The notes under the pieces were generated by a model. It did not search any database, was not told the origin of the DNA, and saw only the letters and a list, made by a program, of their open reading frames with translations. Positions 13,679-63,300 of a stretch of DNA of 64,000 bases are shown piece by piece (position 1 is the stretch's first letter; the number at the start of each line of letters is the position of its first letter). The stretch lies in the sequence record OR770614.1, one strand, 5' to 3'. Both the position numbers and the translations under genes were made by a program. This stretch comes from Staphylococcus phage vB_StaM_PB50.

Positions 13679-14074
13679 TTAATAAATATAATCTTCGATA
13701 TCAATTTCATTTTGTTTAATTGTCATATCATGGAAAGACTTCATGGAGCTTGTTACAATTGCTTGAGCTACCTGATTGACTAATAAACCAATATTTTCAA
13801 TACCTAATTTGTAAGGTAATTCTCCTGCACATTTACTACAAATATCTTCACTCGCACAATACATAGGACTTCTGAAGTTCAATACTTTCTCAATATACTC
13901 ATCTACATTTTCAGGAGTTAATAATATTAATTGACCTTTTCTTCCTGAAGTATTTTCAAAATATCTATAAAGTAAAAGACTTGCATTATCTTTAGTTAAA
14001 GTTAATTTTAATGTATGTTTTGTTCTACAATCAGAACCTTGTTTATCTAATACAGTTGTTTGGAAAGCGGACAT
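13679..14074 (-). CDS. RNAP beta-prime-like subunit, distal exon or fragment (trigger-loop region)
   Basis: ICSKCAGELPYKLGIENIGLLVNQVAQAIVTSSMKSFHD aligns with bacterial beta-prime CxxCYG...[25 protein letters not shown]. Confidence 0.7.
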   Translation of the reverse strand: MSAFQTTVLDKQGSDCRTKHTLKLTLTKDNASLLLYRYFENTSGRKGQLILLTPENVDEYIEKVLNFRSPMYCASEDICSKCAGELPYKLGIENIGLLVNQVAQAIVTSSMKSFHDMTIKQNEIDIEDYIY

Positions 14075-14239
14075 AAGTTTTTTAGCTTGATCATTTTATT
14101 ATCTATATTTTACTATAGATTAGACTATATCTTATGAATTTAATCATTTCTATATTTAGTCGTTGGACAACTTTATTAAGTTGATGCTAGTTAGTTTTAA
14201 CATTCTAGCAATTAATAGAATTTATTGTGAGCATCTAAT
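14075..14239 (-). mobile_element. intron-like intervening element (conserved core family) splitting the beta-prime C-type gene in the bridge-helix region
   Basis: Contains family core TTAATTGCTAGAA...TTAACTAGCATCAAC...TTGTCCAACGACTAAATA...GATATAGTCTAAT in gene orientation. Flanking ORFs are contiguous in the beta-prime alignment (GSAGRALGTQEGG | SAFQTTVLD ~ GARKGLADTALKTAN | SGYLTRRLVD). Confidence 0.55.
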
Positions 14240-15055
14240 TTACCCACCTTCTTGAGTACCTAAAGCACGTCCAGCTGAACCAGCTGTCATAATATCACCA
14301 AACATATATAATTCTTCTGGATCAATTCCATCAGCTAAAGAACTCTTAGCAATACGTATTTTACTAGGATCAGCAAAATTTTTATTTGCTCCACGAATAA
14401 GAGCTGTTAATTTAAAGTTATTTTCAAAACTACCTCTTGATTTACTATCATAAATATCAAGATCTGCTAAACCTTCTAATTCTTCCTTACTTAACTTAAT
14501 TAATTCTTCTTCAATAGCACTAATAGCATTCAATTCTTCACCAGGAGTATTTAATGCTTTACCGTATTTCTCTAGTAATTCTTCTTTCTTTTGTTTAACT
14601 TTATCTGGAGCAACCATCATTGTAGTTGTTAAGCTAGAATTAATAAATCCTGCTATAGAGAAACCAAGCCATTGAAGTTTATCAATATACATATTCATAT
14701 CTTTAGTTGTAATAACGTCATTAAGTAATAAACTAGATAGTTCAGATTGTAGATTTCCTACACCTGATCCTCCCATATCTTTATTCATATATCCTATAAT
14801 AGGTCCTATTTTATTGTCTAATATAAATTTATTAAATATATATCTTCCAACTGTTGTTCTTTCATCTTTACTATTATAAACTAAATCTTTTTTAAGTTTA
14901 AATCTATCGCTAGGGTTAAACATTGGTTGTGTATTTTGTCTAAATGCAAATAATTCTTTAAGTTTATCAAGAGTAATATCTTCTTTTTTTATACTTAATA
15001 AAGTTGATATTTCTTTCTCAGATAAATCTTTTTTATCATAAGTCATATTAACCAA
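14240..15055 (-). CDS. RNAP beta-prime-like subunit, proximal exon or fragment (region up to bridge helix)
   Basis: C-terminal ELYMFGDIMTAGSAGRALGTQ resembles beta-prime EYFISTHGARKGLADTA (region F). Confidence 0.6.
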   Translation of the reverse strand: MVNMTYDKKDLSEKEISTLLSIKKEDITLDKLKELFAFRQNTQPMFNPSDRFKLKKDLVYNSKDERTTVGRYIFNKFILDNKIGPIIGYMNKDMGGSGVGNLQSELSSLLLNDVITTKDMNMYIDKLQWLGFSIAGFINSSLTTTMMVAPDKVKQKKEELLEKYGKALNTPGEELNAISAIEEELIKLSKEELEGLADLDIYDSKSRGSFENNFKLTALIRGANKNFADPSKIRIAKSSLADGIDPEELYMFGDIMTAGSAGRALGTQEGG

Positions 15056-15258
15056 TTTAATTTCACTTCTTTCATATATTATTTGTAATATTTGAATGTT
15101 ATCATCAATTTTATATTTTTGTAATTTATAAAATTATCTCATAAAAAATTTGAAAACCTCCGGAATATTATATTTATATAATAATATAATTATTATAATA
15201 TATTAAAATATAAAATATTTTAATATATAAAAAATATAATATTAGAGGGGGTATATTT

Positions 15259-15281
15259 AGATTTTGATATAATCAAAATCT
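15259..15281. promoter_or_regulatory. perfect 10-bp palindrome AGATTTTGAT-ATA-ATCAAAATCT in the divergent promoter region between the beta-prime and beta genes
   Basis: Seen directly in a very AT-rich 316-nt intergenic region between divergently transcribed RNAP genes; candidate operator or promoter element. Confidence 0.4.
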
Positions 15282-15371
15282 AATAAATTATTTCTCCTTA
15301 AATTACATAAAAAAGATAAAGAAAACAAGTACATATATAAAATTTATTAAATGAAAGGAATTGAATAATAA

Positions 15372-18300
15372 GTGAAGTATCTTAATAGATTAAAGAATTT
15401 AAAATTCTATTCAATTTCAGGATATAAGATTAAAGCTATAGATGAAAATATTAAGGATCAAAAGAAAAACCAATTAATAATTTATAAAGGTTTTAAAGAA
15501 AATTCATTTATAGAATTCTTAAATAGTGGTATATTATATTATCAAAATTTCAAGAATATTTATACTCCTAGAATATATAGAACATCAAATAGAAAATCAA
15601 GATTAATTACTAATATTTCAGATTACCAACAAGAAATTAAAAGTAAATCAATCAAATCTTATAGAGTAGAAAGAAATGAGAAATTATTTAAAGGTAGAAA
15701 TTATATAGTTGATTCAAGTAAATTTATCAATCTTGAAAATAAATCTTTAATGACTAAGAATTTTAAAACTGTATTAGATTCAATTAAAAATACTTATAAT
15801 AATTTAAATAATCCAGAAGAATATGAAAATTTATTATATGTAATTAATGTAGATGGATACAATAAATCTTCTCAAGAAGCTATTAGACCAAATACAAAAG
15901 ATTTTATGTCAAGTTTATTTATGATGATTAAGAATCAGGAAGAATTACCTCACAAAGAAAATCAAAATGTAGTAGCTTTATTTGTTTCTATTGAGAACGG
16001 TATAATGTTCAAATTTGATTTTAAAGATTATAATAAATTGAATAATAGATTAAGACAAAGGTTAAGAAGAGCTATTGATTTAAATACTCAACAAATGGAT
16101 ACAGATGAAATTTCTAATGTTGAAGATGATGATAATACAGAAGCTATAGATTCAACTATTAAAAAGAAATCATTTAACAATGTTAAAGATATTGATCCAA
16201 TTGAATTACAAGATAATAATAAAGATGAAATTAATCAAAACATTGAAGATTCTAAGATGGAAAAAATATCTAAGAAAATAGATGATACATTAAGATATAT
16301 CAAATCTAATGATAATATTGATATGGATATTAATGATGAGTATAATATTGCAATGATAATTGAAAAAGAATTAAATGATAATAATGATCTTATTGATATT
16401 GATGAAGATACATTATATAATGATGTACTTGATAAGAATGATTCATTTAAATCAATTAAAAGAGATATTAAAAATAAATCATATATTGGAGACACTGCAT
16501 TAAAGAATTCTAAAAAGATATTATCATTATCTAAAAATCAAGATGAATATCTTGAAAAATTAGAAGATTTTAGTTTCTCTGAAGATAGTGTTATTGATAG
16601 AGAGATTAATGAAAATGTTAATAGTATTAATGATGAAGCAATCAACAATGTATCTTCGAATGATTTTGACTTATCTTATATGAAAAAGACATTTAATAAA
16701 GACTTTGTAAATATCATGAAGAGTTTTAATGATAAAGAAGAAATACCTGTATTCATTAGCAAAATGAATGTAGAAGATAATTCAGATTCTCAATCATTAA
16801 AAAATACTGTAAAAGTCCAATTTAAGAGTCCTGATGGGATTAATCATAATGTAAAATTTGATGTACCTAAAATTATTGATGGTAAATATTTAAAATTAAA
16901 TGGTGGTAAAAAGGTACTAACTAAACAATTAATGATGTATCCTATTGTTAAATATAGACCAGATACAGTTTGGATTACAACTAACTATAATAAATTCATC
17001 ATTGAAAAATTTGGTAGCAAAGAAAATTCTGAAACTGAATGGCTTAAAAAAGTTATTGAAGATAAACAAGTACTAGAATACATTAAAGATAAAAATGATA
17101 TTAGTATTCAAAAAGGTAATTCATCTTTAATTAATAAAGAATATTTAACTTCTGTGTTGTATAATAATTTATCTAAAAATATATTAAGATTCTCTAAAGA
17201 TGATTTAATAATTGATTTTAATCAAAGAAATCTTAAAAAAGTTATTTCAGAAAGTAAAACTTTAAGTGAGATTGATTACGATAAAGATAAATACTATCCT
17301 ATCGGTTATAATTCAAACAAATCTAAATTAATATTGTCAAATACTACAGAATCTATTATTTTTAAAGCTACTAAAAGTAATATAGAATCCATGAATATTA
17401 ATATCACAGATTATATTATTGAACAACTTGAAGATAATATTGATTTTAGTCTAATAGATAAAAAATTCAGTAAAAATATTCAAGCTAGTAAAACAATGGC
17501 ATTCTCTCGTGTTAAAATTACTAATAAATTAATCCCTACAATAGTGTTATTAGGTTTCTATAAAGGTTTAACTAGTATTCTTGATCTCTATGAAGTTGAT
17601 TATAAGTTTGTTAAGGAAAATGAAAGAATAACTATTAAAGATAAAAAGAATAAAATTAAATTCCAAGATGGTTATCTTATTTATTCAACAGATAAATTAA
17701 GATATGATTTATTATTATCAGGATTAAATACTATTCCTACTTCACAATATGACTTTGAAGAATTTAATAGTGAAACACCTTACTTAGAATACTTTAATGA
17801 TAAGTTCTATAGTCGTAATGTTGGTAAAGGTATTAAAAATGCATTAGATTTAGCAATGGATCCTATTACAGAAGATGTATTAAGAGATTTAAAATTACCT
17901 GAAACTATGGTAGAATTATTACTCTTAGCTAATACCATGCTAGAAGATGTAACTGCTAGAGAACACAATGACATGGGAATATATCGTGTACGTGGTCCAG
18001 AACAAGTTAATGCTTTAATATATAAAATGATTGCAAATGCATATAAAGAATATTCAGACTCTTACAATAATAAGAATCCTAAGAATATTTCTGTTAAGCA
18101 AGACCAATTAATCAAAACTATAATGGAACAACCTACTGTAGATGAAGTATCTGATCTTAATCCATCTTTAGAGATTGATAAGATGACTTCTGTTACATTT
18201 AAAGGTCCAGCAGGACGTAATAATGAACAATCATATGAACCTGACATTCGTTCATACAGTGAAAGTATGCAAGGTGTATTAGGAATATCTAGTCCTGATT

Positions 18301-18488
18301 CTAATAAAATTGGGGTAGTTAGACAGCTTTCATATAATTCACTAATTAAATCTACTAGAGGTTATACAGATGGTGGTAAAAAAGATGCTAATGACACATC
18401 TCTATATACTCCATTAGAACTACTTAACCCATATTCTAGTAGACATGCCGATGATCAAACATGGATAGTCGGCTTAAAAACTATTTAA
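15372..18488 (+). CDS. RNAP beta-like subunit, exon 1 or N-terminal fragment (GTG start)
   Basis: C-terminal part (SRHADDQTWIVGL) aligns with the bacterial beta region (HDDANRALMGANM); continued by two downstream ORFs carrying the next conserved beta blocks. Confidence 0.6.
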   Translation: MKYLNRLKNLKFYSISGYKIKAIDENIKDQKKNQLIIYKGFKENSFIEFLNSGILYYQNFKNIYTPRIYRTSNRKSRLITNISDYQQEIKSKSIKSYRVERNEKLFKGRNYIVDSSKFINLENKSLMTKNFKTVLDSIKNTYNNLNNPEEYENLLYVINVDGYNKSSQEAIRPNTKDFMSSLFMMIKNQEELPHKENQNVVALFVSIENGIMFKFDFKDYNKLNNRLRQRLRRAIDLNTQQMDTDEISNVEDDDNTEAIDSTIKKKSFNNVKDIDPIELQDNNKDEINQNIEDSKMEKISKKIDDTLRYIKSNDNIDMDINDEYNIAMIIEKELNDNNDLIDIDEDTLYNDVLDKNDSFKSIKRDIKNKSYIGDTALKNSKKILSLSKNQDEYLEKLEDFSFSEDSVIDREINENVNSINDEAINNVSSNDFDLSYMKKTFNKDFVNIMKSFNDKEEIPVFISKMNVEDNSDSQSLKNTVKVQFKSPDGINHNVKFDVPKIIDGKYLKLNGGKKVLTKQLMMYPIVKYRPDTVWITTNYNKFIIEKFGSKENSETEWLKKVIEDKQVLEYIKDKNDISIQKGNSSLINKEYLTSVLYNNLSKNILRFSKDDLIIDFNQRNLKKVISESKTLSEIDYDKDKYYPIGYNSNKSKLILSNTTESIIFKATKSNIESMNINITDYIIEQLEDNIDFSLIDKKFSKNIQASKTMAFSRVKITNKLIPTIVLLGFYKGLTSILDLYEVDYKFVKENERITIKDKKNKIKFQDGYLIYSTDKLRYDLLLSGLNTIPTSQYDFEEFNSETPYLEYFNDKFYSRNVGKGIKNALDLAMDPITEDVLRDLKLPETMVELLLLANTMLEDVTAREHNDMGIYRVRGPEQVNALIYKMIANAYKEYSDSYNNKNPKNISVKQDQLIKTIMEQPTVDEVSDLNPSLEIDKMTSVTFKGPAGRNNEQSYEPDIRSYSESMQGVLGISSPDSNKIGVVRQLSYNSLIKSTRGYTDGGKKDANDTSLYTPLELLNPYSSRHADDQTWIVGLKTI

Positions 18489-18626
18489 TTGCTGAAATTA
18501 CTTTAAAGTTAATCAGCATCAATCAAATTGTTCAACGACTAAATAATAGTTACTAATTATATAATTAGTAATGATATAGTCTCAACTATGTATAAAGTAT
18601 ATAGAAATAAGATAATGTCTCCACGT
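18466..18626 (+). mobile_element. intron-like intervening element in RNAP beta (approximate limits inferred from protein alignment; the ORF-to-ORF gap is 18489..18587)
   Basis: Core TTAATTGCTGAAA..TTAATCAGCATCA..TTGTTCAACGACTAAATA..GATATAGTCTCA. Joining HADDQTW to IGMTGTQAKHVIP recreates the beta motif HDDANRALMGANMQRQAVP. Confidence 0.5.
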
Positions 18627-19091
18627 ATTGGAATGACTGGTACTCAAGCCAAGCACGTAATTCCAACAAAAACTAATAGTAAACCATTAGTTGGATCTGG
18701 TGTTGATAAATCTTTAGCTTATCAATTATCAGATACATTTGCTTTTAAAGCTAAGCAAGATGGTAAAGTATTAAAAATTAATGAGAAAACTGGTTTAATG
18801 ACAGTGGAATATATCAATGGTGAAAAAGATATTGTTGATATATCTGAAAAATTAGCCAAAAACTCTAACTCAGGTTTTTATCAATCTAATAAACTTGATC
18901 CACAATTTAACGTAGACGACACTTTTAATAAAGGTCAAATACTTGCTAAAAATAATAATTTCTTTGCTGGATCTGGTAAAAATAATGATATTCAATTCAC
19001 TTCAGGTAAATTATCTAAAGTATCTGTAGCTAGCTCATATGGTATTATAAATGCCTTTCATTATAGTAATGTAATGTCAAAAAATTATTAA
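18588..19091 (+). CDS. RNAP beta-like subunit, exon 2 or fragment (KPLVGSG block)
   Basis: SKPLVGSGVDK (beta KPLVGTGME), AKQDGKVLKI, NSNSGFYQSN, ends AFHYSN-VMSKNY inside the conserved beta motif AFMPWNGYNFEDS. Confidence 0.65.
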   Translation: MYKVYRNKIMSPRIGMTGTQAKHVIPTKTNSKPLVGSGVDKSLAYQLSDTFAFKAKQDGKVLKINEKTGLMTVEYINGEKDIVDISEKLAKNSNSGFYQSNKLDPQFNVDDTFNKGQILAKNNNFFAGSGKNNDIQFTSGKLSKVSVASSYGIINAFHYSNVMSKNY

Positions 19092-19220
19092 TTGCTGAGA
19101 AATATTAAATTAATCAGCATCTCTATATTTATAGAGTTCAACGACTAAATATAATTATTCATTAATGCTAATGAATTTGATATAGTCTAATCTATTATAA
19201 AAATATAATAGCTAATATAA
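19080..19220 (+). mobile_element. intron-like intervening element in RNAP beta, second copy (ORF gap 19092..19220)
   Basis: Core TTAATTGCTGAGA..TTAATCAGCATCT..GTTCAACGACTAAATA..GATATAGTCTAAT. Flanks AFHYSN | (M)TYEDSSI recreate the beta AFMPWNGYNFEDSI. Confidence 0.5.
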
Positions 19221-19982
19221 ATGACTTATGAAGATAGTTCTATTATTTCTAGTAGTATGTCTGAAGCAATGTCTACTAAAGTTACTATGAAGAAAACAGT
19301 AAATATTCCATCAAACACAAATATTCAATATATAGTTAAAGAAGGTCAGAAAGTACGTACAGGAGATCCTTTAATGATATTTGAAACTTCATTCGATGAA
19401 GAAGGTATTGGTTCTTTATTAGATAAAATTGGTAGTGAATTTGAACAAGATATTCAAGATATAGCTAACCGAGCTGTTAGAAGTAAATATACAGGTAATA
19501 TTAAAAAGATTAATATTTATTATAATGATGATATTGAAAATATGACTGATAGTTTAGCTAAATTAGTTAATAATTACATTAAAAAATCAAATGATAAATA
19601 TAAAGAATATAAATCTGGAATTAAAAATAATAAAGAAACTTTACCTGGTATTGATGTAGATATCGCTGCAGTTGATAAAATTAATACAGAGAAAATTAAA
19701 GGGGAAAAAGTTGACGGAGTTCTTATTGAAATCTTCACTGAGTATGAAGATGATATGAGTGTTGGAGATAAAATTAGTTTCTATGGAGCTTGTAAAACTG
19801 TAGTTGCTGATGTAACTCCTCCAAATGAATCTCCTTATGCAGAATATAGACCTGATGAGGAAATCGAAGCTGTATTCTCTCCATTAAGTATTGTCTCTCG
19901 TATGACAGTTGATATTTACATGATGCTATTTACAAATAAAGCTTTAATAGAATTAAAACGTAAAGTAAAAGATATGATTTAA
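19221..19982 (+). CDS. RNAP beta-like subunit, exon 3 or fragment
   Basis: TYEDSSII (beta NFEDSIL), GDKISFYGACKTVVADV (beta GDKMAGRHGNKGVVSKI), SPLSIVSRMTVD (beta NPLGVPSRMNIG). Confidence 0.7.
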   Translation: MTYEDSSIISSSMSEAMSTKVTMKKTVNIPSNTNIQYIVKEGQKVRTGDPLMIFETSFDEEGIGSLLDKIGSEFEQDIQDIANRAVRSKYTGNIKKINIYYNDDIENMTDSLAKLVNNYIKKSNDKYKEYKSGIKNNKETLPGIDVDIAAVDKINTEKIKGEKVDGVLIEIFTEYEDDMSVGDKISFYGACKTVVADVTPPNESPYAEYRPDEEIEAVFSPLSIVSRMTVDIYMMLFTNKALIELKRKVKDMI

Positions 19983-38988: not shown

Positions 38989-39447
38989 TTATTTATTAAT
39001 TTCAATTGTAGAAGAAAATACGTTATTAATTATTTGAAAGATATCAGGTCCATCAGCTTTAAACATTCCTGAAAGATCAAATGTAGCATTTTCATCTTCT
39101 AAATTAACATATACAGGCATAGGACCGAATAAAATATCAGAAACAACATAGAATAAACCTTCTTTGAATTGATTATTTTCTTCAGCTTTAATTAGAGTAA
39201 TCTGTTGATCTTCTTCTTTATCTACAATAATATTTAATTTATAAATATCTTTAGAAGTAATACCATCTTTTGAGTATTTTAAATAATCTTCAACATTTTC
39301 ATTAATTAATTTAGTAATAGAAAAAGTACCTTTTTCTGAATTGAAAAAAGCATCTTTAATCTCTTTTAAGTATTTATCTTCTGTATTTAACTCAATTGTA
39401 ACTTCTTTAGGGTATTCTAATTCTTTTAATTTAGTAACTTTCAGCAT
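38989..39447 (-). CDS. hypothetical protein
   Basis: ORF. Confidence 0.45.
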   Translation of the reverse strand: MLKVTKLKELEYPKEVTIELNTEDKYLKEIKDAFFNSEKGTFSITKLINENVEDYLKYSKDGITSKDIYKLNIIVDKEEDQQITLIKAEENNQFKEGLFYVVSDILFGPMPVYVNLEDENATFDLSGMFKADGPDIFQIINNVFSSTIEINK

Positions 39448-45210: not shown

Positions 45211-46152
45211 TTAAGCTCCTTTACTTTTTATTTTATCAGATACTTTCTTAGCTGCAACATTCAATGGAGGTAAACCATGAAATTCTTGAGCAAATGCTAC
45301 ACTATCTTGACTGTTAAATTTACTAATAAATTCAGTATTAAAGTCGTAATTTAATTTGTCTTCTTCATACTTAGGAACTGTCATTGTAGATTTATCTTGT
45401 ATTTGAATTTTACCTATATGTCCTTCAGGTGTTATATTATATGCTCTAATAATAGATGGATATAGAGCAGTCAAGTCAAAGTCACAAACATTACTAAATA
45501 ATCTATTAGATCTAATATCTCTACCTTTAACTAAAATATCACCCATACGTTCTATTAATGTCATATTAGCTACAAATCCACCACGTATTTTATCTGCGTT
45601 TGGATCAGATAGTATTTTAGAGTGATTATTACTTAATACATATCCTTGATTTTCAAAGAAGACAGAACTACGATTTCTTAAACAAATAGTTTTCTTAAGT
45701 GCTTTACTTGGTCTCGTTCTAGTCATATCTACAATAGAGAATAATAAATCAAACATATTAGTGTTCTTTTCTATTAAAGCAGTTAATACTGTATCTTTAA
45801 TATTGTATAGAATAAATGTATAATAATCTCTAAAATGTAAATCAGAGATAGATCCTTCATATACATCCTTTTTAATACCAGTTTCTTTTTCACCAACATC
45901 ATTTAACTTAACTGATTCCATAACACCATTTGGTTTATTTACATTTGCATATAAAGCTAATTGGTCAATCCAGTTAGTGTATGAGTTAGTTTCGAATGTA
46001 GATGATCTATTAGCTGCATCTGTAGCATTTTTATCTAATCTATAATAAGCTTTTTTATCTTGTAAATCTTTAGAACAGAAATAATCAGCTGGATCTTCTC
46101 CATTAGCTCTGATTCTTTCAAATATAGCAGGAAAATCGTAATCAAGATTCCA
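45211..46152 (-). CDS. family B DNA polymerase, distal exon (Exo II to motif A); the listed ORF 45211..45921 extends upstream in frame to about 46152
   Basis: WNLDYDFPAIFERI (Exo II WN..FD.PY) and DFDLTALYPSII (motif A DxxSLYPS). Protein stops about 60 aa after motif A, with no motif B or C. Confidence 0.7.
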   Translation of the reverse strand, partial: WNLDYDFPAIFERIRANGEDPADYFCSKDLQDKKAYYRLDKNATDAANRSSTFETNSYTNWIDQLALYANVNKPNGVMESVKLNDVGEKETGIKKDVYEGSISDLHFRDYYTFILYNIKDTVLTALIEKNTNMFDLLFSIVDMTRTRPSKALKKTICLRNRSSVFFENQGYVLSNNHSKILSDPNADKIRGGFVANMTLIERMGDILVKGRDIRSNRLFSNVCDFDLTALYPSIIRAYNITPEGHIGKIQIQDKSTMTVPKYEEDKLNYDFNTEFISKFNSQDSVAFAQEFHGLPPLNVAAKKVSDKIKSKGA

Positions 46153-46293
46153 CTTTTATTTAAATAGACTGTATCTTATTTGTTATTTAAACAAATTTCC
46201 TTATTCAGTCGTTGAACGTATATTAATACGATGCTGATTAGTTTAAACACTTCCAGCAATTAAAGGAATTTTACACGACCTAGAATTTTGATT
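46153..46293 (-). mobile_element. small intron-like element (conserved core family) in the DNA polymerase gene
   Basis: Core TTAATTGCTGGAAG..TAATCAGCATCG..GTTCAACGACTGAATA..GATACAGTCTAT. Joining the flanks gives PDVCTA|WNLDYDFP, matching the family B PDVITGWN..FD.PY. The exon side ends in U and the element ends in G. Confidence 0.55.
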
Positions 46294-46606
46294 AAGCCGT
46301 ACATACATCAGGTTTACTAATTTCATTAATATAATATAAAAATGCTTTTATAATTTCCATTTCAGATTCTAATTCATATATTTCAAATTCTAATCCTAGA
46401 TTACCAATTTTACTATTTTCATTATTATAAATATTATTTAAATCTTCTAACAGTTTACTTTTATTTTCCATAGTTTCTTTATAAGTATCTGTATCATATT
46501 TTAAAGCAAATGTTAAACATTTACGTTTACTCCAGTCAACAGCAGTTATAATATTAACTTCAGCCTCTGCTTTTTCTGGTTCAGGGACATTTATATTAAC
46601 TTTATA
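46294..46606 (-). CDS. family B DNA polymerase, middle exon (approximate limits)
   Basis: NVPEPEKAEAEVNIITAVDWSKRKCLTFALK resembles the T4 gp43 segment FPDPMKAEYEIDAITHYDSIDDRFYVFDLL as I recall it; SEMEIIKAFLYYINEISKPDVCTA is the pre-Exo II block. Confidence 0.5.
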
Positions 46607-47352
46607 CAATTGTATAAAGATTAGACTATATCTTTTAAATTCAAATATATTTCCATTTAAAATTTTTGTAAGTTTTACTATTTCTATAACCATTTGCAAC
46701 TGCTTGTATTCCTTTTCTATCTATATTTAATTCTTCCGCTGCAAATTTAGCACTTTCATATTCTTTTATAATTTTATCTGTTTCTTTATCTATTTGTGCC
46801 ACTGGTTTTCTTCTCTTTTTTAATGATTCTTCCATTTTATCAGTTTTATGAAGATTATTTTCTATAGCATGTAAATTATTTTCTAATACTGACATCCATT
46901 CTAAATTAGATAAATTATTATTTAATTTATTACCGTCAATATGATTAACTACATTTTTATCAATATCTTTATTTTCGATAAAATTCTCTGCAACTAAACG
47001 GTGTATTCTTCTTGTATGCTTCTTATTATTTTTATATAATTGAACATCTTCATAACCATTTTTATTTATTCTTGTCTTTAATACTCTTTCTTTAATAAGC
47101 ATTCTTTTATCTTTACCTTTTAAAGAATCATTATATACATATCTTGAAACCGATTTAACTTTACCAGTATTGGATATTTTATAGTAATTTTCAAAATCTT
47201 TAATGTCTTTCCATATTTCTTTCATTATTTTCCTCCTTTTATAAAGGAAGTATATTTGAATTATATTATTATATTTAGTCGTTGAACACTAAATTAGTGA
47301 TGCTGATTATTTTTAAACTTTTCAGCAATTAATAATTTTTTAATTGAGCTAC
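46607..47352 (-). mobile_element. intron-like element of the same core family carrying an HNH homing endonuclease ORF
   Basis: 5' part has core TTAATTGCTGAAAAG..TAATCAGCATCA..GTTCAACGACTAAATA followed by SD and HNH ORF. 3' part has GATATAGTCTAATC. Interrupts the polymerase just after Exo I. Confidence 0.6.
46641..47225 (-). CDS. HNH homing endonuclease (NUMOD4-like N-terminus plus HNH_3)
   Basis: WKDIKDFENYYKISNTGKV; HRLVAENFI...NHIDGNKLNNNLSNLEW HNH motif; strong SD AAAGGAGG. Confidence 0.8.
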   Translation of the reverse strand: MKEIWKDIKDFENYYKISNTGKVKSVSRYVYNDSLKGKDKRMLIKERVLKTRINKNGYEDVQLYKNNKKHTRRIHRLVAENFIENKDIDKNVVNHIDGNKLNNNLSNLEWMSVLENNLHAIENNLHKTDKMEESLKKRRKPVAQIDKETDKIIKEYESAKFAAEELNIDRKGIQAVANGYRNSKTYKNFKWKYI

Positions 47353-47844
47353 CTAAATTAACCCAACTGTTTGCGAAGAATCAACTTCTATATCAAAGAA
47401 AACTATATCAATTCCAACTTTACTATCTAAGTTTTGTTTGATATACTCATTAATATTATAATCTTCAATATTAATATCAGATCCATGAACATTATTCATT
47501 AAATGAAAATCTTTTAATTTTCTAAACTCTTCATAATTACCTGAAGATAATATTCTATCGTATTCTGATTTATCTTGAGCATTACCTGCTTCTCTAACTA
47601 TAGATTTAATAACATCTTTATGTTTACAGTGTACAGTTCTAACTTTTTCTTTAGCCATAGAACCTACAACTATATTAGGTGGTAACCAATGTTCATCTTT
47701 AGTTACATAATAATGCATCATAGGATCTACTATTTCCATATGTTTCTTAGTTCCATCTTCTTCTTTGACTACCATTACTACTTTTTCTTTTTTATTAGAT
47801 GTTTCTTTTTTATTCAAATATGTTGATTTTATAAAACGACCCAT
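47353..47844 (-). CDS. family B DNA polymerase, first exon (Exo I motif)
   Basis: GIDIVFFDIEVDS (Exo I FDIE). Confidence 0.65.
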   Translation of the reverse strand: MGRFIKSTYLNKKETSNKKEKVVMVVKEEDGTKKHMEIVDPMMHYYVTKDEHWLPPNIVVGSMAKEKVRTVHCKHKDVIKSIVREAGNAQDKSEYDRILSSGNYEEFRKLKDFHLMNNVHGSDINIEDYNINEYIKQNLDSKVGIDIVFFDIEVDSSQTVGLI

Positions 47845-52850: not shown

Positions 52851-53633
52851 TTATTTAAAATTATTTTTCACTAAATATTTTTTAATAATCTTTTCATCTT
52901 TAATCTCTTCAAATACTCCAGATATTTTATACTCGTCAAATAAATTATAGTATTCATCATCTATATCAACATTATCTCTTTTATCATTCTCTGGTATGTG
53001 CGAGAAACAACCATCTGATACAAAAAATTCTATATCAAAATGATCTCTAATTTGTGATAAAATTTCCAATATAGAACTATTTACTTCAACTAATATTTGG
53101 TATAAATCTTTATTATTTCTAAAATTATTCTCTGTACCACTATTAAAATCTGATATTAAATCTTCCATGCTATTTATATGAAATCTAAAAGGCACTTTTA
53201 AAGAATTGGATTCATCTAATATATTGCCAATAACGCTATTAAAAATTATTGAATTTATACCTGAAGAGTATGGATTTTCAATTCTAACTTTTAAATAGTT
53301 CTTATTTTCTATTGATTCGTTGAAAATAATATCAAAATCAATAATAAGTATATTCGTTGTCTTTTTATTATTAACATTATATTTGATAACTGGAAAAATA
53401 TATCCAGCCGATATAATCCCTGACCATAAATTCTCTCCATTATCATCTTTATCAACAATCTCTTCAGAAGATATAGTTATTTCTTCATTACTTTTTACTT
53501 GTAAATTAGAAAGTAATTGAGGTAGATATAAATAATCTTCACTTATATTATATTTGTATAAATTAGTAACTTCAAATAAATCATCTGTCATTTTACTTAA
53601 AAAATATTTTTTATGACTTTTATTTATACTCAT
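52851..53633 (-). CDS. tandem paralog family member 3
   Basis: N-terminal KKYFLSKMTDDLFEV; C-terminal FEEIKDEKIIKKYLVKNNFK. Confidence 0.6.
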   Translation of the reverse strand: MSINKSHKKYFLSKMTDDLFEVTNLYKYNISEDYLYLPQLLSNLQVKSNEEITISSEEIVDKDDNGENLWSGIISAGYIFPVIKYNVNNKKTTNILIIDFDIIFNESIENKNYLKVRIENPYSSGINSIIFNSVIGNILDESNSLKVPFRFHINSMEDLISDFNSGTENNFRNNKDLYQILVEVNSSILEILSQIRDHFDIEFFVSDGCFSHIPENDKRDNVDIDDEYYNLFDEYKISGVFEEIKDEKIIKKYLVKNNFK

Positions 53634-59834: not shown

Positions 59835-59836
59835 TA

Positions 59837-61246: not shown

Positions 61247-61729
61247 TTATTTAAAAAGATTTCTAATTTTAAAATCTTTTACTTCTTTACAATCTTCTGA
61301 TAATATTTTAAATATGTCTTCATTATCAAAATTAAATTCTTTTAATAATATATTATAATTTAATAAAGGTATATCTATTGCATTACACATTCTTTTATAT
61401 AATATATAGTAAAGATCTTCTGAAGAATCAGATGAGACAAGATTTTGATTCTTTAAATCTACTAATTTAGGTGCAAAAGGATTATTATTATCATATTTCA
61501 TATGTGTAACTAAAAATAATCTAGATGAGTCATAATTTAATTGGAAGTTTAATTCTTTATGTCCTTTATCTTTATCAAATAAATCAATTTTTTTACCCAC
61601 TGATTCATATAATTCCATTCTTTCTTTTTTAAATTCATTACCAAACACATAACAAAAAGCATCATCTTTTCTATGAATATCATTAACTTCGTATATTTCA
61701 CCATTTACTTTATTTTTGTAATATATCAT
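61247..61729 (-). CDS. tandem paralog family member 12 (near-duplicate of 60028..60519)
   Basis: MIYYKNKVNGEIYEVNDIHRKDDAFCYVFGNEFKK; C-terminal EDCKEVKDFKIRNLFK. Confidence 0.6.
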   Translation of the reverse strand: MIYYKNKVNGEIYEVNDIHRKDDAFCYVFGNEFKKERMELYESVGKKIDLFDKDKGHKELNFQLNYDSSRLFLVTHMKYDNNNPFAPKLVDLKNQNLVSSDSSEDLYYILYKRMCNAIDIPLLNYNILLKEFNFDNEDIFKILSEDCKEVKDFKIRNLFK

Positions 61730-61746
61730 TATCTATTTCAACTCCA

Positions 61747-62367
61747 TTATTTAAAATTTTCTTTAATTAAATATTTCTTAATCTTATCAATATCTTTTTC
61801 TTCATTATTTTCTAATTCATTTATATTCCTACCATTTAATAACAAATCATAACCTTTATCATTAAATTTTCTTTCTAAATCGTATAAGTATCTAATTACA
61901 ATATCAGAATATTTTAAATGAAAATCATTTTTATCATAATTAAAAATAGAAATTGTTACATTATTGATTTCTTTATCATCTACTATTAAATTTATATAAT
62001 CAACATCTGATATAAGTTTTTTATATCTATCACTTTCTATTTGTTTTTCTTCATTATCATAAAACAATCTTATGCCACTTGTATATTCATTTAACTCATT
62101 TTCTTGTTTTTCAGAAAAAATATCTATTGACAAACTAAATTGAAATTTTATATTTTCACATATCAATTCAAGATTATCAAGAGAAATATTTATATCTAAT
62201 CTCTCTAGACCTAAATTTAGAAAATTATCTTCCTTGATACGATCTACATCAATATGCAACATTCCTATCAAGTCTGTAATATTTCCTTTAATTTTATCTT
62301 TATAGATTTGCATTAATCTATCATCCATTTTAAAATACCTATAATCATTAATATTCAAAATAATCAC
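61747..62367 (-). CDS. tandem paralog family member 13
   Basis: C-terminal EKDIDKIKKYLIKENFK. Confidence 0.55.
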   Translation of the reverse strand: MIILNINDYRYFKMDDRLMQIYKDKIKGNITDLIGMLHIDVDRIKEDNFLNLGLERLDINISLDNLELICENIKFQFSLSIDIFSEKQENELNEYTSGIRLFYDNEEKQIESDRYKKLISDVDYINLIVDDKEINNVTISIFNYDKNDFHLKYSDIVIRYLYDLERKFNDKGYDLLLNGRNINELENNEEKDIDKIKKYLIKENFK

Positions 62368-62442
62368 TTCTCCTTTTATATTTTAATACACTTCTATTTT
62401 ATAATATATATTTAAATAAGTATTTTGTATAAGAGCAATATA

Positions 62443-62475
62443 ATAAGAGTAACGATCTATATTAGACCGTTACTC
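62443..62475 (-). terminator. terminator hairpin AGAGTAACG-loop-CGTTACTCT after the beta-prime N gene
   Basis: 9-bp inverted repeat directly after the mini-exon stop. Confidence 0.55.
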
Positions 62476-62485
62476 TGAATTTTTA

Positions 62486-62521
62486 AATTATTCTTTAGTT
62501 AAAGAATATAAAGCTTGTACC
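62486..62521 (-). CDS. RNAP beta-prime N-type gene, terminal mini-exon (MVQALYSLTKE)
   Basis: VQALYSLTKE aligns to beta-prime DVVLGLYYMTR, which directly follows the block ending the previous exon (..PSQ); 11 codons then stop. Confidence 0.5.
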
Positions 62522-62644
62522 ATATATTTATGATAATTAGACTATATCTTATGATATTTAAATCATTTTCATATTTAGTCGTTGAACAACTTTTATTAAG
62601 TTGATGCTGATTAATTTTGTTTTTCCAGCAATTAATGAAATTTA
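62522..62644 (-). mobile_element. intron-like element (core family) in the beta-prime N gene, copy C
   Basis: Core TTAATTGCTGGAAAAAC..TTAATCAGCATCAAC..GTTGTTCAACGACTAAATA..GATATAGTCTAAT between ..FVCSQ and (M)VQALYSLTKE. Confidence 0.55.
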
Positions 62645-62778
62645 TTGAGAGCATACAAACTTACTCTCATTACCAACTCCACGTATACTATTTCCTGTGT
62701 AGTTTAAGTAATTAGTTTTCTTATTAATAAGTTTATCAGCTTCTTTATTTGCTTCTACAGACCATAAAGAGCGTATTG
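62645..62778 (-). CDS. RNAP beta-prime N-type gene, exon (DMISIRSLWSVEANKEADKLINKKTNYLNYTGNSIRGVGNESKFVCSQ)
   Basis: Aligns with beta-prime [41 protein letters not shown], immediately after the NADFDGD motif. Confidence 0.6.
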
Positions 62779-62937
62779 AAATCATATCCATTTTATATAC
62801 ATGTATTTACATATAATTAGACTATATCTTCTTTAGTAATATATTTAGTCGTTGAACAACTTTTATTAAGTTGATGCTGATTATCTTATAGATTTTCCAG
62901 CAATTAATATTATTTAATGATGGTAATATAAAATTTT
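62779..62937 (-). mobile_element. intron-like element (core family) in the beta-prime N gene, copy B, inserted within the catalytic NADFDGD motif
   Basis: Upstream exon ends ..YAQALGADFDG; the next exon begins D-MISIRS. The element ends ..AAAATG immediately before GATATGATT. Confidence 0.55.
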
Positions 62938-63129
62938 GCCATCAAAATCTGCACCAAGTGCTTGAGCATATGAATTGTGTATGATTGCAGTATCTAAGAA
63001 AATATCTTCATCAACAGGATACTCTCTTACTACTTTAGGGTAATCTTTTAATACTATATCATCTAAAATTATTTCTGGAATAGTATCAACAGTAGTTAAT
63101 ATTTTAATTTTAGCAGGTGCTACGTTCAA
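62938..63129 (-). CDS. RNAP beta-prime N-type gene, exon ending in ADFDG (catalytic loop)
   Basis: HNSYAQALGADFDG matches the HPLVCAAYNADFDGD context. The listed ORF uses a TTG start and runs on into the element (KILYYHH stop). Confidence 0.55.
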
Positions 63130-63300
63130 GAAATTTTCGCATTTATTATATTTATATAAGTATTATATAAATTAGACTATATTATATACTATTAAATAGT
63201 ATCATTGCATTTAGTCGTTGAACAATTATATTTAATTGATGCTGATTAACTTTATTAATAGTATTTCAGCAATTAACAATATTTATCAACTTAAATCACT
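63130..63300 (-). mobile_element. intron-like element (core family) in the beta-prime N gene, copy A
   Basis: Core TTAATTGCTGAAATAC..TTAATCAGCATCAAT..TTGTTCAACGACTAAATG..AATATAGTCTAAT between SRYPINKMVAA (NRAPTLHRLGI) and the next exon. Confidence 0.55.

What the first reader, a model, noticed from the sequence alone, without database searches (positions are those of the whole stretch)
13679..63300. Family of at least seven very short (about 120-175 nt) intron-like elements with one conserved core, interrupting RNAP beta, RNAP beta-prime and DNA polymerase genes
In the orientation of the host gene, every copy contains the ordered core TTAATTGCTG(A/G)(A/G)A ... T(T/A)AATCAGCATC(A/G) ... (T)TGTTCAACGACTAAATA ... 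GATATAGTCTAAT. The first two blocks form a hairpin (TGCTGA pairs with TCAGCA). Copies are at 14075-14239 (beta-prime C-type), 18466-18626 and 19080-19220 (beta), 46153-46293 and 46607-47352 (DNA polymerase, the latter carrying an HNH endonuclease), and 62522-62644, 62779-62937 and 63130-63300 (beta-prime N-type). In each case the flanking ORFs resume the conserved protein alignment with zero to a few residues missing. Reasons an RNA-level removal seems required: the beta-prime NADFDGD motif is split as ADFDG | D; an 11-codon mini-exon (MVQALYSLTKE) lies between two copies; and the beta motifs HDDANRALMGANMQRQAVP and AFMPWNGYNFEDS are cut in the middle. The elements are far below the minimum size of known group I or group II ribozymes and contain stop codons, so they are not inteins. 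They could be a new class of compact introns, self-splicing or helped by a phage or host factor, or degenerate derivatives of an HNH-carrying parent intron.
Basis: partly seen in the sequence, partly recalled or inferred. Interest (0 to 1): 0.95.

Follow-up and report, generated by a model that had tools for sequence, protein, structure and literature searches.

The report
Miniature group I introns in phage polymerase genes
The eight short elements are real introns, but they are very small members (142-183 nt without an ORF) of the well-known group I self-splicing family, not a new kind, and they sit in RNA and DNA polymerase genes of a Staphylococcus jumbo phage whose relatives are already annotated as intron-rich.

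Summary
Eight copies of one conserved core interrupt four genes of a Machias/AH12-like Staphylococcus jumbo phage: virion RNAP beta, beta-prime N, beta-prime mid, and the DNA polymerase exonuclease part.

Every copy aligns to Rfam Intron_gpI, below its gathering score (14.5-42.5 against 50 bits). Every copy has the P3/P7 pseudoknot, P4-P6, a P1 guide pairing and a 3'-terminal G. [quoted passage not shown] Seven have P8. P3, P6 and P8 covary strongly.

Corrected lengths are 150, 165, 180, 142, 183, 149 and 142 nt, plus 773 nt for the copy carrying an I-HmuI-like HNH gene in its P8 loop. Phage S6 has intron-less alleles. At seven sites these match the predicted ligated exons base for base without gaps. 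At the eighth (B2) they relocated the 5' splice site.

Introns in these genes are already published and annotated for Machias, MarsHill, Madawaska and AR9. What looks undescribed in the papers I could search:
- the very small size;
- a variant with no P8;
- C.A in place of U.G at one splice site;
- 9-32 copies per genome.

Splicing itself was not tested.

The parts
14092..14241 (-). Intron A, 150 nt, group I, in the virion RNAP beta-prime mid-domain gene. It lies inside a codon (GGG T|..|AT CAA). P1 GTGGGT/GCTCAC, P3 TCTAT/ATAGA, P4 TGCTAG/CTAGCA, P6 CAACTT/AAGTTG, P7 GACTA/TAGTC, P8 ATGA/TCAT, P9 ATCTATA/TATAGAT. It ends in G.
   Evidence: Rfam RF00028 34.6 bits, E 3.5e-7, full model. Model R1 100.6 bits. 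Gapless match of the ligated exons to S6. Helices.
18453..18617 (+). Intron B1, 165 nt, group I, in the virion RNAP beta gene, between HAD and SPRIGMTG. P1 GCCGAT/GTCGGC with U.G, P3 ACTATT/AATAGT, P8 TTACTAATTA/TAATTAGTAA, P9 present.
   Evidence: RF00028 42.5 bits, E 3.1e-9, model 1-253. R1 88.3 bits. S6 colinear. In Madawaska and LY01 the exon base (GCC to GCG) and the guide base change together.
19044..19223 (+). Intron B2, 180 nt, group I, in the beta gene, between SYG and TYEDS. P1 is short (GGT/GCC) and is followed by a P2-like hairpin CATTAT/GTAATG. P3 AATTAT/ATAATT, P8 ATTCATTA/TAATGAAT, P9 CTATTATA/TATAATAG.
   Evidence: The 5' splice site was revised from the intron-less S6 allele (SYG|TYEDS) and from four intron-bearing relatives. 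R1 93.9 bits. RF00028 15.4 bits.
46588..47360 (-). Intron D2, 773 nt, group I, in the DNA polymerase exonuclease-domain gene, just after the FDIE motif and inside a codon (GGG T|..|TC CCT gives G-F-P-E-P). A homing endonuclease gene sits in the loop of a 12-bp P8 (AATTCAAATATA/TATATTTGAATT).
   Evidence: R1 68.5 bits for the 5' part. RF00028 hits to both halves. S6 colinear. P8 stem located.
46641..47225 (-). Intron-encoded HNH homing endonuclease, 194 aa, with the I-HmuI-like architecture NUMOD4 + HNH_3 + NUMOD1.
   Evidence: Pfam PF07463 3.8e-15, PF13392 7.9e-9, PF22083 and PF07453. The orthologue in Machias is annotated 'HNH homing endonuclease'.
46153..46294 (-). Intron D1, 142 nt, group I, in the DNA polymerase gene, between CTA and WNLDYDFP. 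P1 ACGGCT/GGTCGT, P3 TTCCTT/AAGGAA, P7 GACTG/CAGTC (a compensatory change), P8 ATTTGTT/AACAAAT, no P2 and essentially no P9.
   Evidence: RF00028 30.7 bits. R1 103.3 bits. The unconstrained fold recovers P1, P3, P4-P5 and P6, z -3.68. P10 pairs 6/6. S6 colinear. At the same site Machias has a roughly 1-kb intron with the same guide sequence.
63140..63322 (-). Intron N3, 183 nt, group I, in the virion RNAP beta-prime N-terminal gene, inside a codon (CCG AT|..|C GAA gives RYPIENF). P1 CGAT/GTCG, a P2 hairpin CTTAAA-GTGA-TTTAAG with a GNRA loop, P3 ATTGT/GCAAT, P8 ATACTAT/ATAGTAT, P9 present.
   Evidence: RF00028 21.9 bits, partial match. R1 95 bits. S6 colinear. A homologous intron in LY01 sits after another ...CCGAT|. 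P10 was not found (2/6).
62789..62937 (-). Intron N2, 149 nt, group I core without P8, splitting the catalytic motif as ADFDG|D. P1 is GATGGC/ACCATC, with C.A in place of U.G at the splice site. P3 TAATAT/ATATTA, P9 present.
   Evidence: RF00028 32.6 bits. R1 91.4 bits. S6 colinear. The P8-less core is conserved in Machias and AH12 at this site, and in MarsHill and LY01 at the N1 site. P10 pairs 6/6.
62521..62662 (-). Intron N1, 142 nt, group I, just before the 10-codon last exon. P1 GAGAGT/GCTCTC, P3 TTCAT/ATGAA, P8 ATGAT/ATCAT, no P2 and minimal P9.
   Evidence: RF00028 27.8 bits. R1 99.9 bits. The S6 alignment has no gap at the junction. P10 pairs 6/6. This intron is not annotated in the Machias record, whose CDS ends at exon 3.
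15372..19982 (+). Host gene: virion RNAP beta subunit. Exons 15372-18452, 18618-19043 and 19224-19982.
   Evidence: Continuous ORF after splicing (with the B2 revision). Pfam RNA_pol_Rpb2_6. It is a single uninterrupted CDS in S6.
13679..15055 (-). Host gene: virion RNAP beta-prime mid-domain. Exons 15055-14242 and 14091-13679.
   Evidence: Machias annotates it as 'viral RNA polymerase beta-prime subunit, mid-domain'.
45211..47844 (-). Host gene: DNA polymerase exonuclease-domain protein. Exons 47844-47361, 46587-46295 and 46152-45211.
   Evidence: The spliced length of 1722 nt equals the uninterrupted S6 CDS. Machias annotation.
62488..64000 (-). Host gene: virion RNAP beta-prime N-terminal subunit; the 5' end runs off the window. 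Exons 64000-63323, 63139-62938, 62788-62663 and 62520-62488.
   Evidence: The Pfam RNA_pol_Rpb1_2 match spans the spliced N2 junction. It is uninterrupted in S6.

Best explanation
The eight elements are compact group I introns. Seven lack an ORF (142-183 nt). One carries an I-HmuI-like HNH homing endonuclease gene in its P8 loop.

How they most likely work:
1. In the pre-mRNA, the last 3-6 bases of the upstream exon pair with an internal guide sequence near the intron's 5' end (P1). A U.G wobble marks the splice site (C.A in N2).
2. The bases just 5' of the guide pair with the start of the downstream exon (P10).
3. The core folds into P4-P5-P6 and the P3/P7 pseudoknot, with P8 in seven of the eight.
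4. A free guanosine bound in P7 attacks the 5' splice site.
5. The intron's terminal G then takes its place, and the freed exon end attacks the 3' splice site. This joins the exons precisely and restores the beta, beta-prime and DNA polymerase reading frames.

At the DNA level the family spreads between co-infecting phages. Likely routes are endonuclease-triggered gene conversion, recombination between copies, and possibly guide-sequence-directed reverse splicing.

Shown here: the anatomy, the covariation, the exact colinearity with intron-less alleles, and the presence/absence differences between related phages.

Inferred: the chemistry of splicing, whether splicing is unaided or needs a protein, and the route of mobility.
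For: 1. Rfam RF00028 (Intron_gpI) aligns to every copy. Six align over the whole model: B1 42.5 bits (E 3e-9), A 34.6, N2 32.6, D1 30.7, N1 27.8 and B2 15.4. N3 gives a partial match of 21.9 bits. D2 matches in two halves around its ORF.
3. P1 pairs 6/6 with U.G at the splice site in A, B1, D2, D1 and N1, 4/4 in N3 and 3/3 in B2. N2 pairs 5/6 with C.A. P10 pairs on average 5.0/6 for each intron with its own exon, against 2.2/6 for mismatched intron-exon combinations. All eight introns end in G.
4. Covariation on 31 copies from the window and five related phages: 98.5% of cells paired against 22-51% when the partner is slid by 1-3 columns. Twelve of 22 pairs change on both sides, in 92 cells. 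None of 500 shuffles reaches the observed values. P3 covaries in 5 of its 6 pairs, and P7 shows GACUA/UAGUC changing to GACUG/CAGUC.
5. Unconstrained folding recovers P1, P3 or P7, P4, P6, P8 and P9, with z-scores of -2.3 to -3.7.
6. The predicted ligations give open reading frames. Seven of eight align without a gap to the uninterrupted genes of phage S6. The eighth (B2) agrees with S6 after its 5' site was re-derived from that same allele, so it is not an independent test. The spliced queries match S6, UFV_DC4 and SA1 in a single piece.
7. Model R1 finds no copy in the S6 loci and 23 in Machias, AH12, LY01, Madawaska and MarsHill, at partly different sites.
8. The exon and the guide sequence change together at the B1 site (GCCGAT/GTCGGC against GCGGAT/GTTCGC). 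U.G changes to C.A between homologous introns.
9. The ORF in D2 has NUMOD4, HNH_3 and NUMOD1 domains.
10. GenBank records of Machias, Madawaska and MarsHill already join these exons. Korn et al. (bioRxiv 10.1101/2020.12.14.422802) report intron-disrupted RNAP and DNA polymerase genes, and refer to experimentally determined mature mRNAs in AR9.
Against: - No RNA data were available, so splicing of these particular introns is not demonstrated.
- All Rfam scores are below the curated gathering score of 50 bits.
- The helices are short and very AT-rich (cores 19-27% G+C), and peripheral stabilising elements are almost absent. Unaided self-splicing under physiological conditions is therefore uncertain.
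- N2 lacks P8 and has C rather than U before the splice site.
- P1 is only 3-4 bp in B2 and N3, and no P10 was found for N3.
- The covariation alignment was fitted to the model and includes orthologous copies, so its statistics are inflated.
Confidence: 0.93

Rival explanations
1. The elements are group I-derived introns that are no longer ribozymes on their own. They splice only with a phage or host protein (a maturase or RNA chaperone), or with help from another copy. This is a variant of the main explanation and differs only in autonomy.
For: - The helices are very small, AT-rich and weakly stable, at -21 to -28 kcal/mol for about 148 nt.
- P2 and P9 are lost in D1 and N1, and P8 is lost in N2.
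- GNRA loops that could make tertiary contacts are few.
- With 9-32 copies per genome, one shared factor would be economical.
Against: - No candidate splicing factor was identified.
- The catalytic core elements P, Q, R, S and the terminal G are conserved as in autonomous introns.
- As I recall, engineered sunY derivatives of about 180 nt are active. This is from memory and was not checked here.
Confidence: 0.35
2. The genes are truly split. The fragments are translated separately and assemble into the enzymes, and the conserved element is an inter-cistronic signal rather than an intron.
For: Jumbo-phage RNA polymerases are already built from split beta and beta-prime subunits (PMC7598289). 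Each element ends in AUG in 7 of 8 cases, which mimics a start codon.
Against: - Three elements lie inside codons (A, D2, N3), so residues are restored only by ligation.
- The catalytic NADFDGD motif would be cut.
- Fragments as short as 10 codons in the window, and of 9, 14 and 16 nt in LY01 and Machias, cannot be subunits.
- The elements carry a complete, covarying group I core and guide sequences complementary to both flanking exons.
- Closely related phages have the same genes uninterrupted.
Confidence: 0.02
3. This is a categorically new class of small introns unrelated to group I or group II.
For: The lengths of 142-183 nt lie below the usual group I range (more than 200 nt, PMC3160393). 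No Rfam family reaches its gathering score.
Against: - RF00028 aligns to all copies, over its full model for six, with E-values down to 3e-9.
- The conserved blocks match the group I core consensus, for example GUUCAACGACUAAAU and AAGAUAUAGUC.
- P1 and P10, the U.G pair, the terminal G and the P3/P7 pseudoknot are all present.
- A full-size group I intron with the same guide sequence occupies the D1 site in Machias.
Confidence: 0.01
4. The ribosome hops over the elements (programmed translational bypassing, as in T4 gene 60), so the RNA is never cut.
For: The elements are short and lie inside coding sequence.
Against: I recall the known bypass as about 50 nt with matched take-off and landing codons (from memory, not checked). 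I saw no such matched codons at the junctions but did not test this systematically. Nothing in bypassing explains a covarying group I core or guide sequences.
Confidence: 0.01

Closest known systems
[quoted passage not shown] 2016; Korn et al. 2021)
   Same: - The phage lineage is the same, and so are the host genes (virion RNAP beta and beta-prime, DNA polymerase).
- The Machias copies of N3, N2 and N1 are about 99.6% identical in their flanking exons.
- The GenBank records join the exons.
- The AR9 beta gene is annotated as six pieces, and model R1 detects related cores there.
   Different: - Those papers and records predict exon junctions from protein alignment. In the text I could read they describe neither the RNA type nor its structure. 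The AR9 paper and the journal version of Korn et al. were not held.
- The Machias record misses N1 and the last exon.
- It also treats two adjacent beta-prime-mid introns as one.
- The AR9 cores are longer and richer in G+C, and score only 23-36 bits with R1.
Classical phage group I introns with HNH endonucleases (SPO1/SP82 DNA polymerase intron with I-HmuI, Bastille I-BasI, Twort, T4 td/nrdB/sunY)
   Same: - The conserved P, Q, R and S core, the guide sequence and the terminal G are shared.
- They insert at the most conserved sites of DNA and RNA metabolism genes.
- D2 encodes an I-HmuI-like NUMOD4-HNH-NUMOD protein in a peripheral loop of a DNA polymerase gene intron (background from PMC12908238).
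   Different: - As I recall (not checked here), those introns are about 250 nt or more without their ORFs and have P2, P7.1/P7.2 and P9 extensions.
- The present ORF-less copies are 142-183 nt, usually have no P2, have no P7.1/P7.2, and have little or no P9.
- One type has no P8.
Group I introns of gut 'Jug' jumbo phages (Sci Adv 2026, PMC12880540)
   Same: Many small group I introns per genome (18.5 on average, about 206 nt each) fragment essential genes such as terL, nrdD and DNA polymerase. Splice junctions were seen in metatranscriptomes. IMG/VR jumbo-phage-sized contigs (I did not identify them as Jug phages) carry the same R...S core, with P3-to-P7' spans of 102-151 nt.
   Different: - The phage lineage and host differ.
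- The specific P-Q-R sequence combination of the Staphylococcus family is absent from IMG/VR.
- The present introns are shorter still.
Azoarcus tRNA-Ile intron and engineered sunY mini-ribozymes (recalled from memory, not checked here)
   Same: They are minimal group I architectures, built from the core helices with few peripheral elements.
   Different: As I recall, Azoarcus is about 205 nt, G+C-rich, and held together by two tetraloop-receptor contacts. The phage introns are 60 nt shorter, about 20-27% G+C, and mostly lack GNRA loops. Their self-splicing is untested.
Degenerate 56-81 nt 'group I' introns of fungal rRNA genes (PMC3160393)
   Same: They are natural group I derivatives far below the normal size.
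   Different: The fungal ones keep only P1, P7 and P10, and seem to need flanking rRNA for activity. The phage introns keep P3-P7, and seven of the eight also keep P8.

Membership tests
Group I intron | A conserved catalytic core: P4-P5-P6, P3 and P7 forming a pseudoknot, and P8, with the conserved P, Q, R and S sequence elements. | tested here: met
   All eight have P3, P4, P5, P6 and P7. Seven have P8; N2 lacks it. Covariation: 98.5% of cells paired, 12 pairs with changes on both sides, 0 of 500 shuffles as high.
Group I intron | The 5' splice site is defined by P1, a pairing between the exon end and an internal guide sequence, with a U.G wobble at the cleavage site. | tested here: met
   Seven of eight have U.G. 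P1 is 6/6 in five copies, 4/4 in N3 and 3/3 in B2. N2 has C.A. The exon and the guide change together at the B1 site in Madawaska and LY01.
Group I intron | The 3' terminal nucleotide is G, and P10 pairs the guide region with the 3' exon. | tested here: met
   All eight end in G. P10 averages 5.0/6 for each intron with its own exon against 2.2/6 for mismatched combinations. It was not found for N3.
Group I intron | A score at or above the curated Rfam RF00028 gathering threshold (50 bits). | tested here: not met
   14.5-42.5 bits. Six copies align over the full model, with E-values from 3e-9 to 0.4 in the local searches; N3 aligns partially and D2 in two halves. There is no hit in the standard whole-window scan. 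The shortfall comes from deleted peripheral and P2/P9 positions, not from core mismatches.
Group I intron | Guanosine-initiated two-step transesterification (self-splicing, with G added to the intron's 5' end). | not testable with these tools
   This needs in vitro transcription with labelled GTP, or RNA from infected cells.
Mobile group I intron with homing endonuclease | A homing endonuclease gene in a peripheral loop, and presence/absence differences at the same site in related genomes. | tested here: met
   D2 carries a NUMOD4-HNH_3-NUMOD1 ORF in the P8 loop. All eight sites are empty in S6. The seven other introns have no ORF.
Subgroup IA1/IA2 (typical T4/Twort phage introns) | Extra helices P7.1/P7.2 between P3' and P8 (a defining feature as I recall it). 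| tested here: not met
   P3' is followed directly by P8 in every copy. Only 15-40 nt lie between J7/3 and J8/7. No subgroup was assigned.
Intein | An in-frame protein insertion without stop codons, with splicing-domain motifs. | tested here: not met
   The upstream ORFs reach stop codons inside the elements, three elements lie inside codons, and most are only about 150 nt long.

The most novel reading that the evidence does not exclude
These could be the smallest natural group I ribozymes that still keep the catalytic core: 142 nt in the window, and by my rough count about 139 nt in MarsHill and LY01. The group would include a functional architecture with no P8 helix and splice sites that use a C.A pair instead of U.G. 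The family has multiplied to 9-32 ORF-less copies per genome, much as miniature transposable elements do. If they self-splice unaided, they would lower the size limit for a natural group I ribozyme with its core intact, and would offer a minimal scaffold for structural work and RNA engineering.
Probability: 0.35. Interest if true: 0.6.

Novelty: new member of a known kind. Interest (0 to 1): 0.4.

Why it matters
For annotation:
- Standard Rfam scans miss these introns, because they score below the gathering threshold and are lost to the filters in whole-window searches.
- Essential polymerase genes of these therapeutically relevant Staphylococcus jumbo phages are therefore called as strings of 'hypothetical proteins' in the AH12, LY01 and S6-type records.
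- Even curated records miss introns and mini-exons, for example Machias N1 and the second beta-prime-mid intron.
- The boundaries given here allow the correct proteins to be reconstructed.

For RNA biology:
- The family is a natural experiment in how far a group I core can be trimmed: no P2, little P9, no P8 in one type, and about 20-27% G+C.
- It is untested whether a C.A pair can replace the U.G wobble in nature.

For phage evolution:
- The introns cluster at catalytic motifs, with up to three within 30 nt around NADFDGD in LY01.
- They differ between near-identical phages.
- This fits intron-mediated competition between co-infecting phages.

Tried and rejected
- Whole-window Rfam scans, both at gathering and at E-value thresholds, found only tRNAs and chance hits. 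The introns appear only when short stretches are searched (against 8, 21-23).
- My first 5' boundary for B2 (after CATTAT, which gives a neat 6-bp hairpin) was wrong. The intron-less S6 allele lacks the seven codons IINAFHY, and homologous introns elsewhere carry the same sequence as intron. That hairpin is now read as P2.
- The weak R1 hit at 39018-39121(+), 20 bits, lies antisense inside a continuous ORF and has no P, Q, R or S blocks. It is a chance match.
- The ninth motif hit, at 53310, has three mismatches and no partner blocks.
- Isolated S-like motifs at 24(-), 11936(+) and 21265(+) are not near an R element. I read the flanks of the first two and found no other core block.
- I suspected an extra intron at the window's right edge. 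There is none: the beta-prime N exon 1 is simply open to position 64000.
- The family-specific P-Q-R pattern gave nothing in IMG/VR or in GTDB genomes.
- I could not model P5 or the inner P6 and P8 pairs on the MAFFT alignment, because the register shifts between copies. They are shown per copy instead.
- Literature: the AR9 genome paper and the J Virol version of Korn et al. are not held. I found no citable statement on the smallest self-splicing group I intron.
- Protein homology, structure prediction and fold search were not needed.

Full report
**1. What the window is**

DNA searches place the window in the Staphylococcus jumbo phages related to Bacillus phages AR9 and PBS1.
- The region is 94-99.6% identical to phages AH12 and Machias.
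- It is about 80-85% identical to S6, UFV_DC4, SA1, PALS_2, MarsHill, Madawaska and LY01.

The interrupted genes are:
- the virion RNA polymerase beta subunit;
- the beta-prime N-terminal subunit;
- the beta-prime 'mid-domain' subunit;
- the DNA polymerase exonuclease-domain protein.

These identities rest on Pfam and on the annotation of Machias.

Yes.
- The block TGTTCAACGACTAAATA, allowing up to 3 mismatches, occurs 9 times against 0.44 expected. Eight of these are the listed copies.
- A covariance model built from the cores (R1) finds exactly those eight at 68-103 bits. Its only other hit scores 20 bits and lies antisense inside an intact ORF.
- A regular expression for paired R and S elements also finds exactly eight.

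**3. What the elements are**

The four conserved blocks are the classical conserved elements of group I introns.
- TTAATTGCTGRRA is J3/4 plus the 5' strand of P4 (element P).
- AATCAGCATC is the 3' strand of P4 (element Q).
- GTTCAACGACTAAAT is J6/7, the 5' strand of P7 and J7/3 (element R).
- GATATAGTCTAAT is J8/7 plus the 3' strand of P7 (element S).

The standard Rfam scan reports nothing here. When short stretches are searched, RF00028 (Intron_gpI) aligns to every copy, over its whole 253-position model for six of them.

| Copy | Bits | Note |
|---|---|---|
| B1 | 42.5 | E 3.1e-9 |
| A | 34.6 | |
| N2 | 32.6 | |
| D1 | 30.7 | |
| N1 | 27.8 | |
| N3 | 21.9 | partial match |
| B2 | 15.4 | |
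| D2 | 15.2 and 14.5 | two halves around its ORF |

All scores are below the gathering score of 50.

Reading each copy by hand gives P1, P3, P4, P5, P6 and P7 in all eight. It also gives:
- P8 in seven copies;
- a P9 hairpin in six;
- a P2-like hairpin only in B2 and N3, where the N3 loop is GUGA.

Unconstrained energy minimisation recovers P1, P3 or P7, P4-P5, P6, P8 and P9. The z-scores are -2.3 to -3.7 against dinucleotide shuffles.

**4. Splice sites**

I placed the 5' splice site at the U.G end of the exon-guide pairing, and the 3' site after a G that restores the reading frame.

| Intron | Coordinates | Length (nt) |
|---|---|---|
| A | 14241-14092 (-) | 150 |
| B1 | 18453-18617 (+) | 165 |
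| B2 | 19044-19223 (+) | 180 |
| D2 | 47360-46588 (-) | 773 |
| D1 | 46294-46153 (-) | 142 |
| N3 | 63322-63140 (-) | 183 |
| N2 | 62937-62789 (-) | 149 |
| N1 | 62662-62521 (-) | 142 |

- P1 pairs 6/6 with U.G in A, B1, D2, D1 and N1, 4/4 in N3 and 3/3 in B2. In N2 it pairs 5/6, with C opposite A at the splice site.
- The six bases 5' of each guide sequence pair with the first six bases of that intron's own 3' exon at 5.0/6 on average. Mismatched intron-exon combinations give 2.2/6. N3 is the exception, at 2/6.
- All eight introns end in G, and seven end in AUG.
- Introns A, D2 and N3 lie inside codons.

All ligations give continuous reading frames. They restore GG-Y-QAKKL in beta-prime mid, G-FPEPEKAE after FDIE and CTA-WNLDYDFP in the polymerase, RYP-I-ENFLNVAP and ADFDG-DMISIRS in beta-prime N, and HAD-SPRIGMTG in beta.

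**5. Independent test with intron-less alleles**

In phage S6 all four genes are single uninterrupted ORFs.
- At seven of eight sites the 90-nt predicted ligated junctions align to S6 with no gap at the junction.
- The eighth site, B2, showed that my first 5' site was wrong. S6 reads ...SSYG|TYEDS..., and four intron-bearing relatives all read ...TATGGT|ATTATAAATGCC... I therefore moved the site 21 nt upstream.
- The spliced DNA polymerase ORF is 1722 nt, exactly the length of the S6 CDS.
- Spliced queries match S6, UFV_DC4 and SA1 in one piece. They match Machias, AH12 and LY01 in several pieces.

**6. Covariation**

R1 found 23 more copies in the loci fetched from Machias, AH12, LY01, Madawaska and MarsHill, and none in the S6 loci. 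I counted pairs on the 31-copy alignment (28 distinct rows), for 22 pairs in P3, P4, outer P6, P7 and outer P8.
- 98.5% of cells form standard pairs, against 22-51% when the 3' partner is slid by 1-3 columns.
- 12 pairs have changes on both sides, in 92 cells.
- None of 500 shuffles reaches any observed measure.
- P3 covaries in 5 of its 6 pairs, and D1 has the P7 change GACUA/UAGUC to GACUG/CAGUC.

Two caveats apply. The alignment was fitted to the model, and many copies are orthologues.

There is also covariation between exon and intron.
- At the B1 site, the window has exon GCCGAT with guide GTCGGC. Madawaska and LY01 have GCGGAT with GTTCGC.
- The B2-type intron pairs exon GGU with guide GCC (U.G). 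Its homologue in AH12 sits after GGC and has ACC (C.A), the same geometry as in N2.

**7. Unusual features**

a) Size. The ORF-less copies are 142-183 nt. A paper on fungal introns gives the usual range as more than 200 nt (PMC3160393). The introns of gut Jug phages average about 206 nt (PMC12880540).

b) N2 has no P8. P3' (ATATTACT) is followed by AAAGAAGATA and then P7'. This P8-less core is conserved in Machias and AH12 at the ADFDG|D site. In MarsHill and LY01 it sits at the N1 site, with changes in P5 and P6 that keep pairing when read by eye. This suggests selection, and also recombination between intron copies.

c) C.A replaces U.G at the N2 splice site.

d) Density and copy number.
- A BLAST search with B1 finds 27, 28, 32, 11 and 9 places in AH12, Machias, LY01, Madawaska and MarsHill. 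It finds none in S6, UFV_DC4, SA1 or PALS_2.
- LY01 has three introns within 30 nt around NADFDGD, separated by 14-nt and 9-nt exons.
- Machias has a second intron in beta-prime mid, 16 nt upstream of intron A.

e) Intron subtypes recur after the same exon ends: GGT| for the B2 type at five sites (plus GGC| at a sixth, in AH12) and CCGAT| for the N3 type at two. This fits target choice through the guide sequence.

f) At the D1 site, Machias has a roughly 1-kb group I intron with a homing endonuclease gene and the same guide sequence, GGTCGTGTAAAA. The window's 142-nt D1 therefore looks like a trimmed version of it.

g) D2 keeps an I-HmuI-like gene (NUMOD4, HNH_3, NUMOD1) in the loop of a 12-bp P8.

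**8. Distribution**

- The generic R...S core is common in IMG/VR, with at least 120 loci, many of them on 200-400 kb contigs. Compact cores spanning 102-151 nt from P3 to P7' are frequent there.
- The specific P-Q-R combination of this family is absent from IMG/VR and from GTDB genomes. It occurs on only four contigs of a single metagenome, each carrying at least two copies.
- The AR9 beta gene, annotated as six pieces, holds related but longer and more G+C-rich cores.

**9. What was already known**

- Korn et al. (bioRxiv 10.1101/2020.12.14.422802) reported that RNAP subunit, DNA polymerase and other genes of MarsHill, Madawaska and Machias are intron-disrupted. They predicted the junctions by protein alignment to AR9, where they say mature mRNAs were determined experimentally.
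- The GenBank records join the exons.

The phenomenon is therefore known. I did not find the following in the papers I could search:
- the assignment of these particular small elements to group I together with their secondary structure;
- their very small size;
- the P8-less and C.A variants;
- several introns and mini-exons missing from the records.

The AR9 paper and the journal version of Korn et al. were not available to me.

**10. Verdict**

The interpretation as introns is right. The interpretation as a new class is wrong, because they are compact group I introns. Splicing chemistry and autonomy are inferred, not shown.

I rate the finding as a new member of a known kind, with moderate interest (0.4). 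If these RNAs self-splice unaided, interest would rise to about 0.6.

Noticed in passing
window 62789-62937 (-); also L129:3208-3307, L130:3389-3487, L131:4046-4146, L132:2999-3099: A group I core with no P8 helix at all: P3' is followed by about 10 unpaired bases and then P7'. It is conserved in five phages and sits at two different insertion sites (ADFDG|D in the window, Machias and AH12; the N1 site in MarsHill and LY01). P5 and P6 differ between these copies in ways that keep pairing (read by eye).
   Followed up: partly
window 62938 (last exon base) with 62918-62923 (guide); L130 about 3170-3200: Two introns have C, not U, as the last exon base, and in both the opposing guide base is A instead of G. 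So C.A replaces U.G. The homologous B2-type introns have GGU paired with GCC.
   Followed up: partly
L131:3152-3898 (LY01 beta-prime N): Three introns lie within 30 nt of coding sequence around NADFDGD. One is a larger intron (roughly 400 nt) and two are mini-introns. They are separated by exons of only 14 nt and 9 nt.
   Followed up: partly
L134:880-1240 (Machias beta-prime mid); L129:3482-3739 (Machias beta-prime N): The Machias GenBank record treats two adjacent mini-introns (177 and 150 nt, with a 16-nt exon between them) as a single intron. It also ends the beta-prime N CDS at exon 3, missing intron N1 and the 10-codon last exon.
   Followed up: yes
L135:2860-3960 (Machias DNA polymerase, D1 site): The same insertion site and the same guide sequence (GGTCGTGTAAAA) as the window's 142-nt D1. 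Here, however, the group I intron is about 1 kb, has an extended P5 region, and contains a homing endonuclease gene. The window copy looks like a trimmed derivative.
   Followed up: partly
whole genomes of AH12, Machias, LY01, Madawaska and MarsHill: BLAST with the 165-nt B1 intron finds 27, 28, 32, 11 and 9 places per genome, including in the prohead protease and DNA polymerase I genes. It finds none in S6, UFV_DC4, SA1 or PALS_2. This looks like a lineage-specific burst of ORF-less introns.
   Followed up: no
window: 3' ends of seven introns (14092, 18617, 19223, 46588, 62521, 62789, 63140): Seven of the eight introns end in ...AUG. Gene callers therefore start each downstream exon with a false Met, which fragments the annotation. 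I did not examine whether this AUG has any function.
   Followed up: no
window 13027-13632 (-): A tRNA cluster next to the beta-prime mid gene. It holds tRNA-Asn (13137-13208) and a tRNA that ARAGORN reports with an odd two-base anticodon (13561-13632). There is also a 103-nt Rfam tRNA match (13027-13129, 52.5 bits) that ARAGORN does not call. Machias marks its tRNA-Asn genes here as pseudogenes.
   Followed up: no
L136-L139 (metagenome Ga0079226): Four short contigs of one metagenome each carry at least two copies of this exact intron family (62-90 bits with R1). In L138 one copy lies on each side of a 339-aa ORF that I did not characterise. This points to an uncultured relative with equally dense introns.
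   Followed up: partly
window as a whole against Machias and AH12: The window is 99.6% identical to Machias in beta-prime N, but only 91-96% in beta, beta-prime mid and the polymerase. Its intron content also differs: it lacks the large endonuclease intron that Machias has in beta, the second beta-prime-mid intron, and the long D1-site intron. It is thus a mosaic relative, not any deposited genome.
   Followed up: partly
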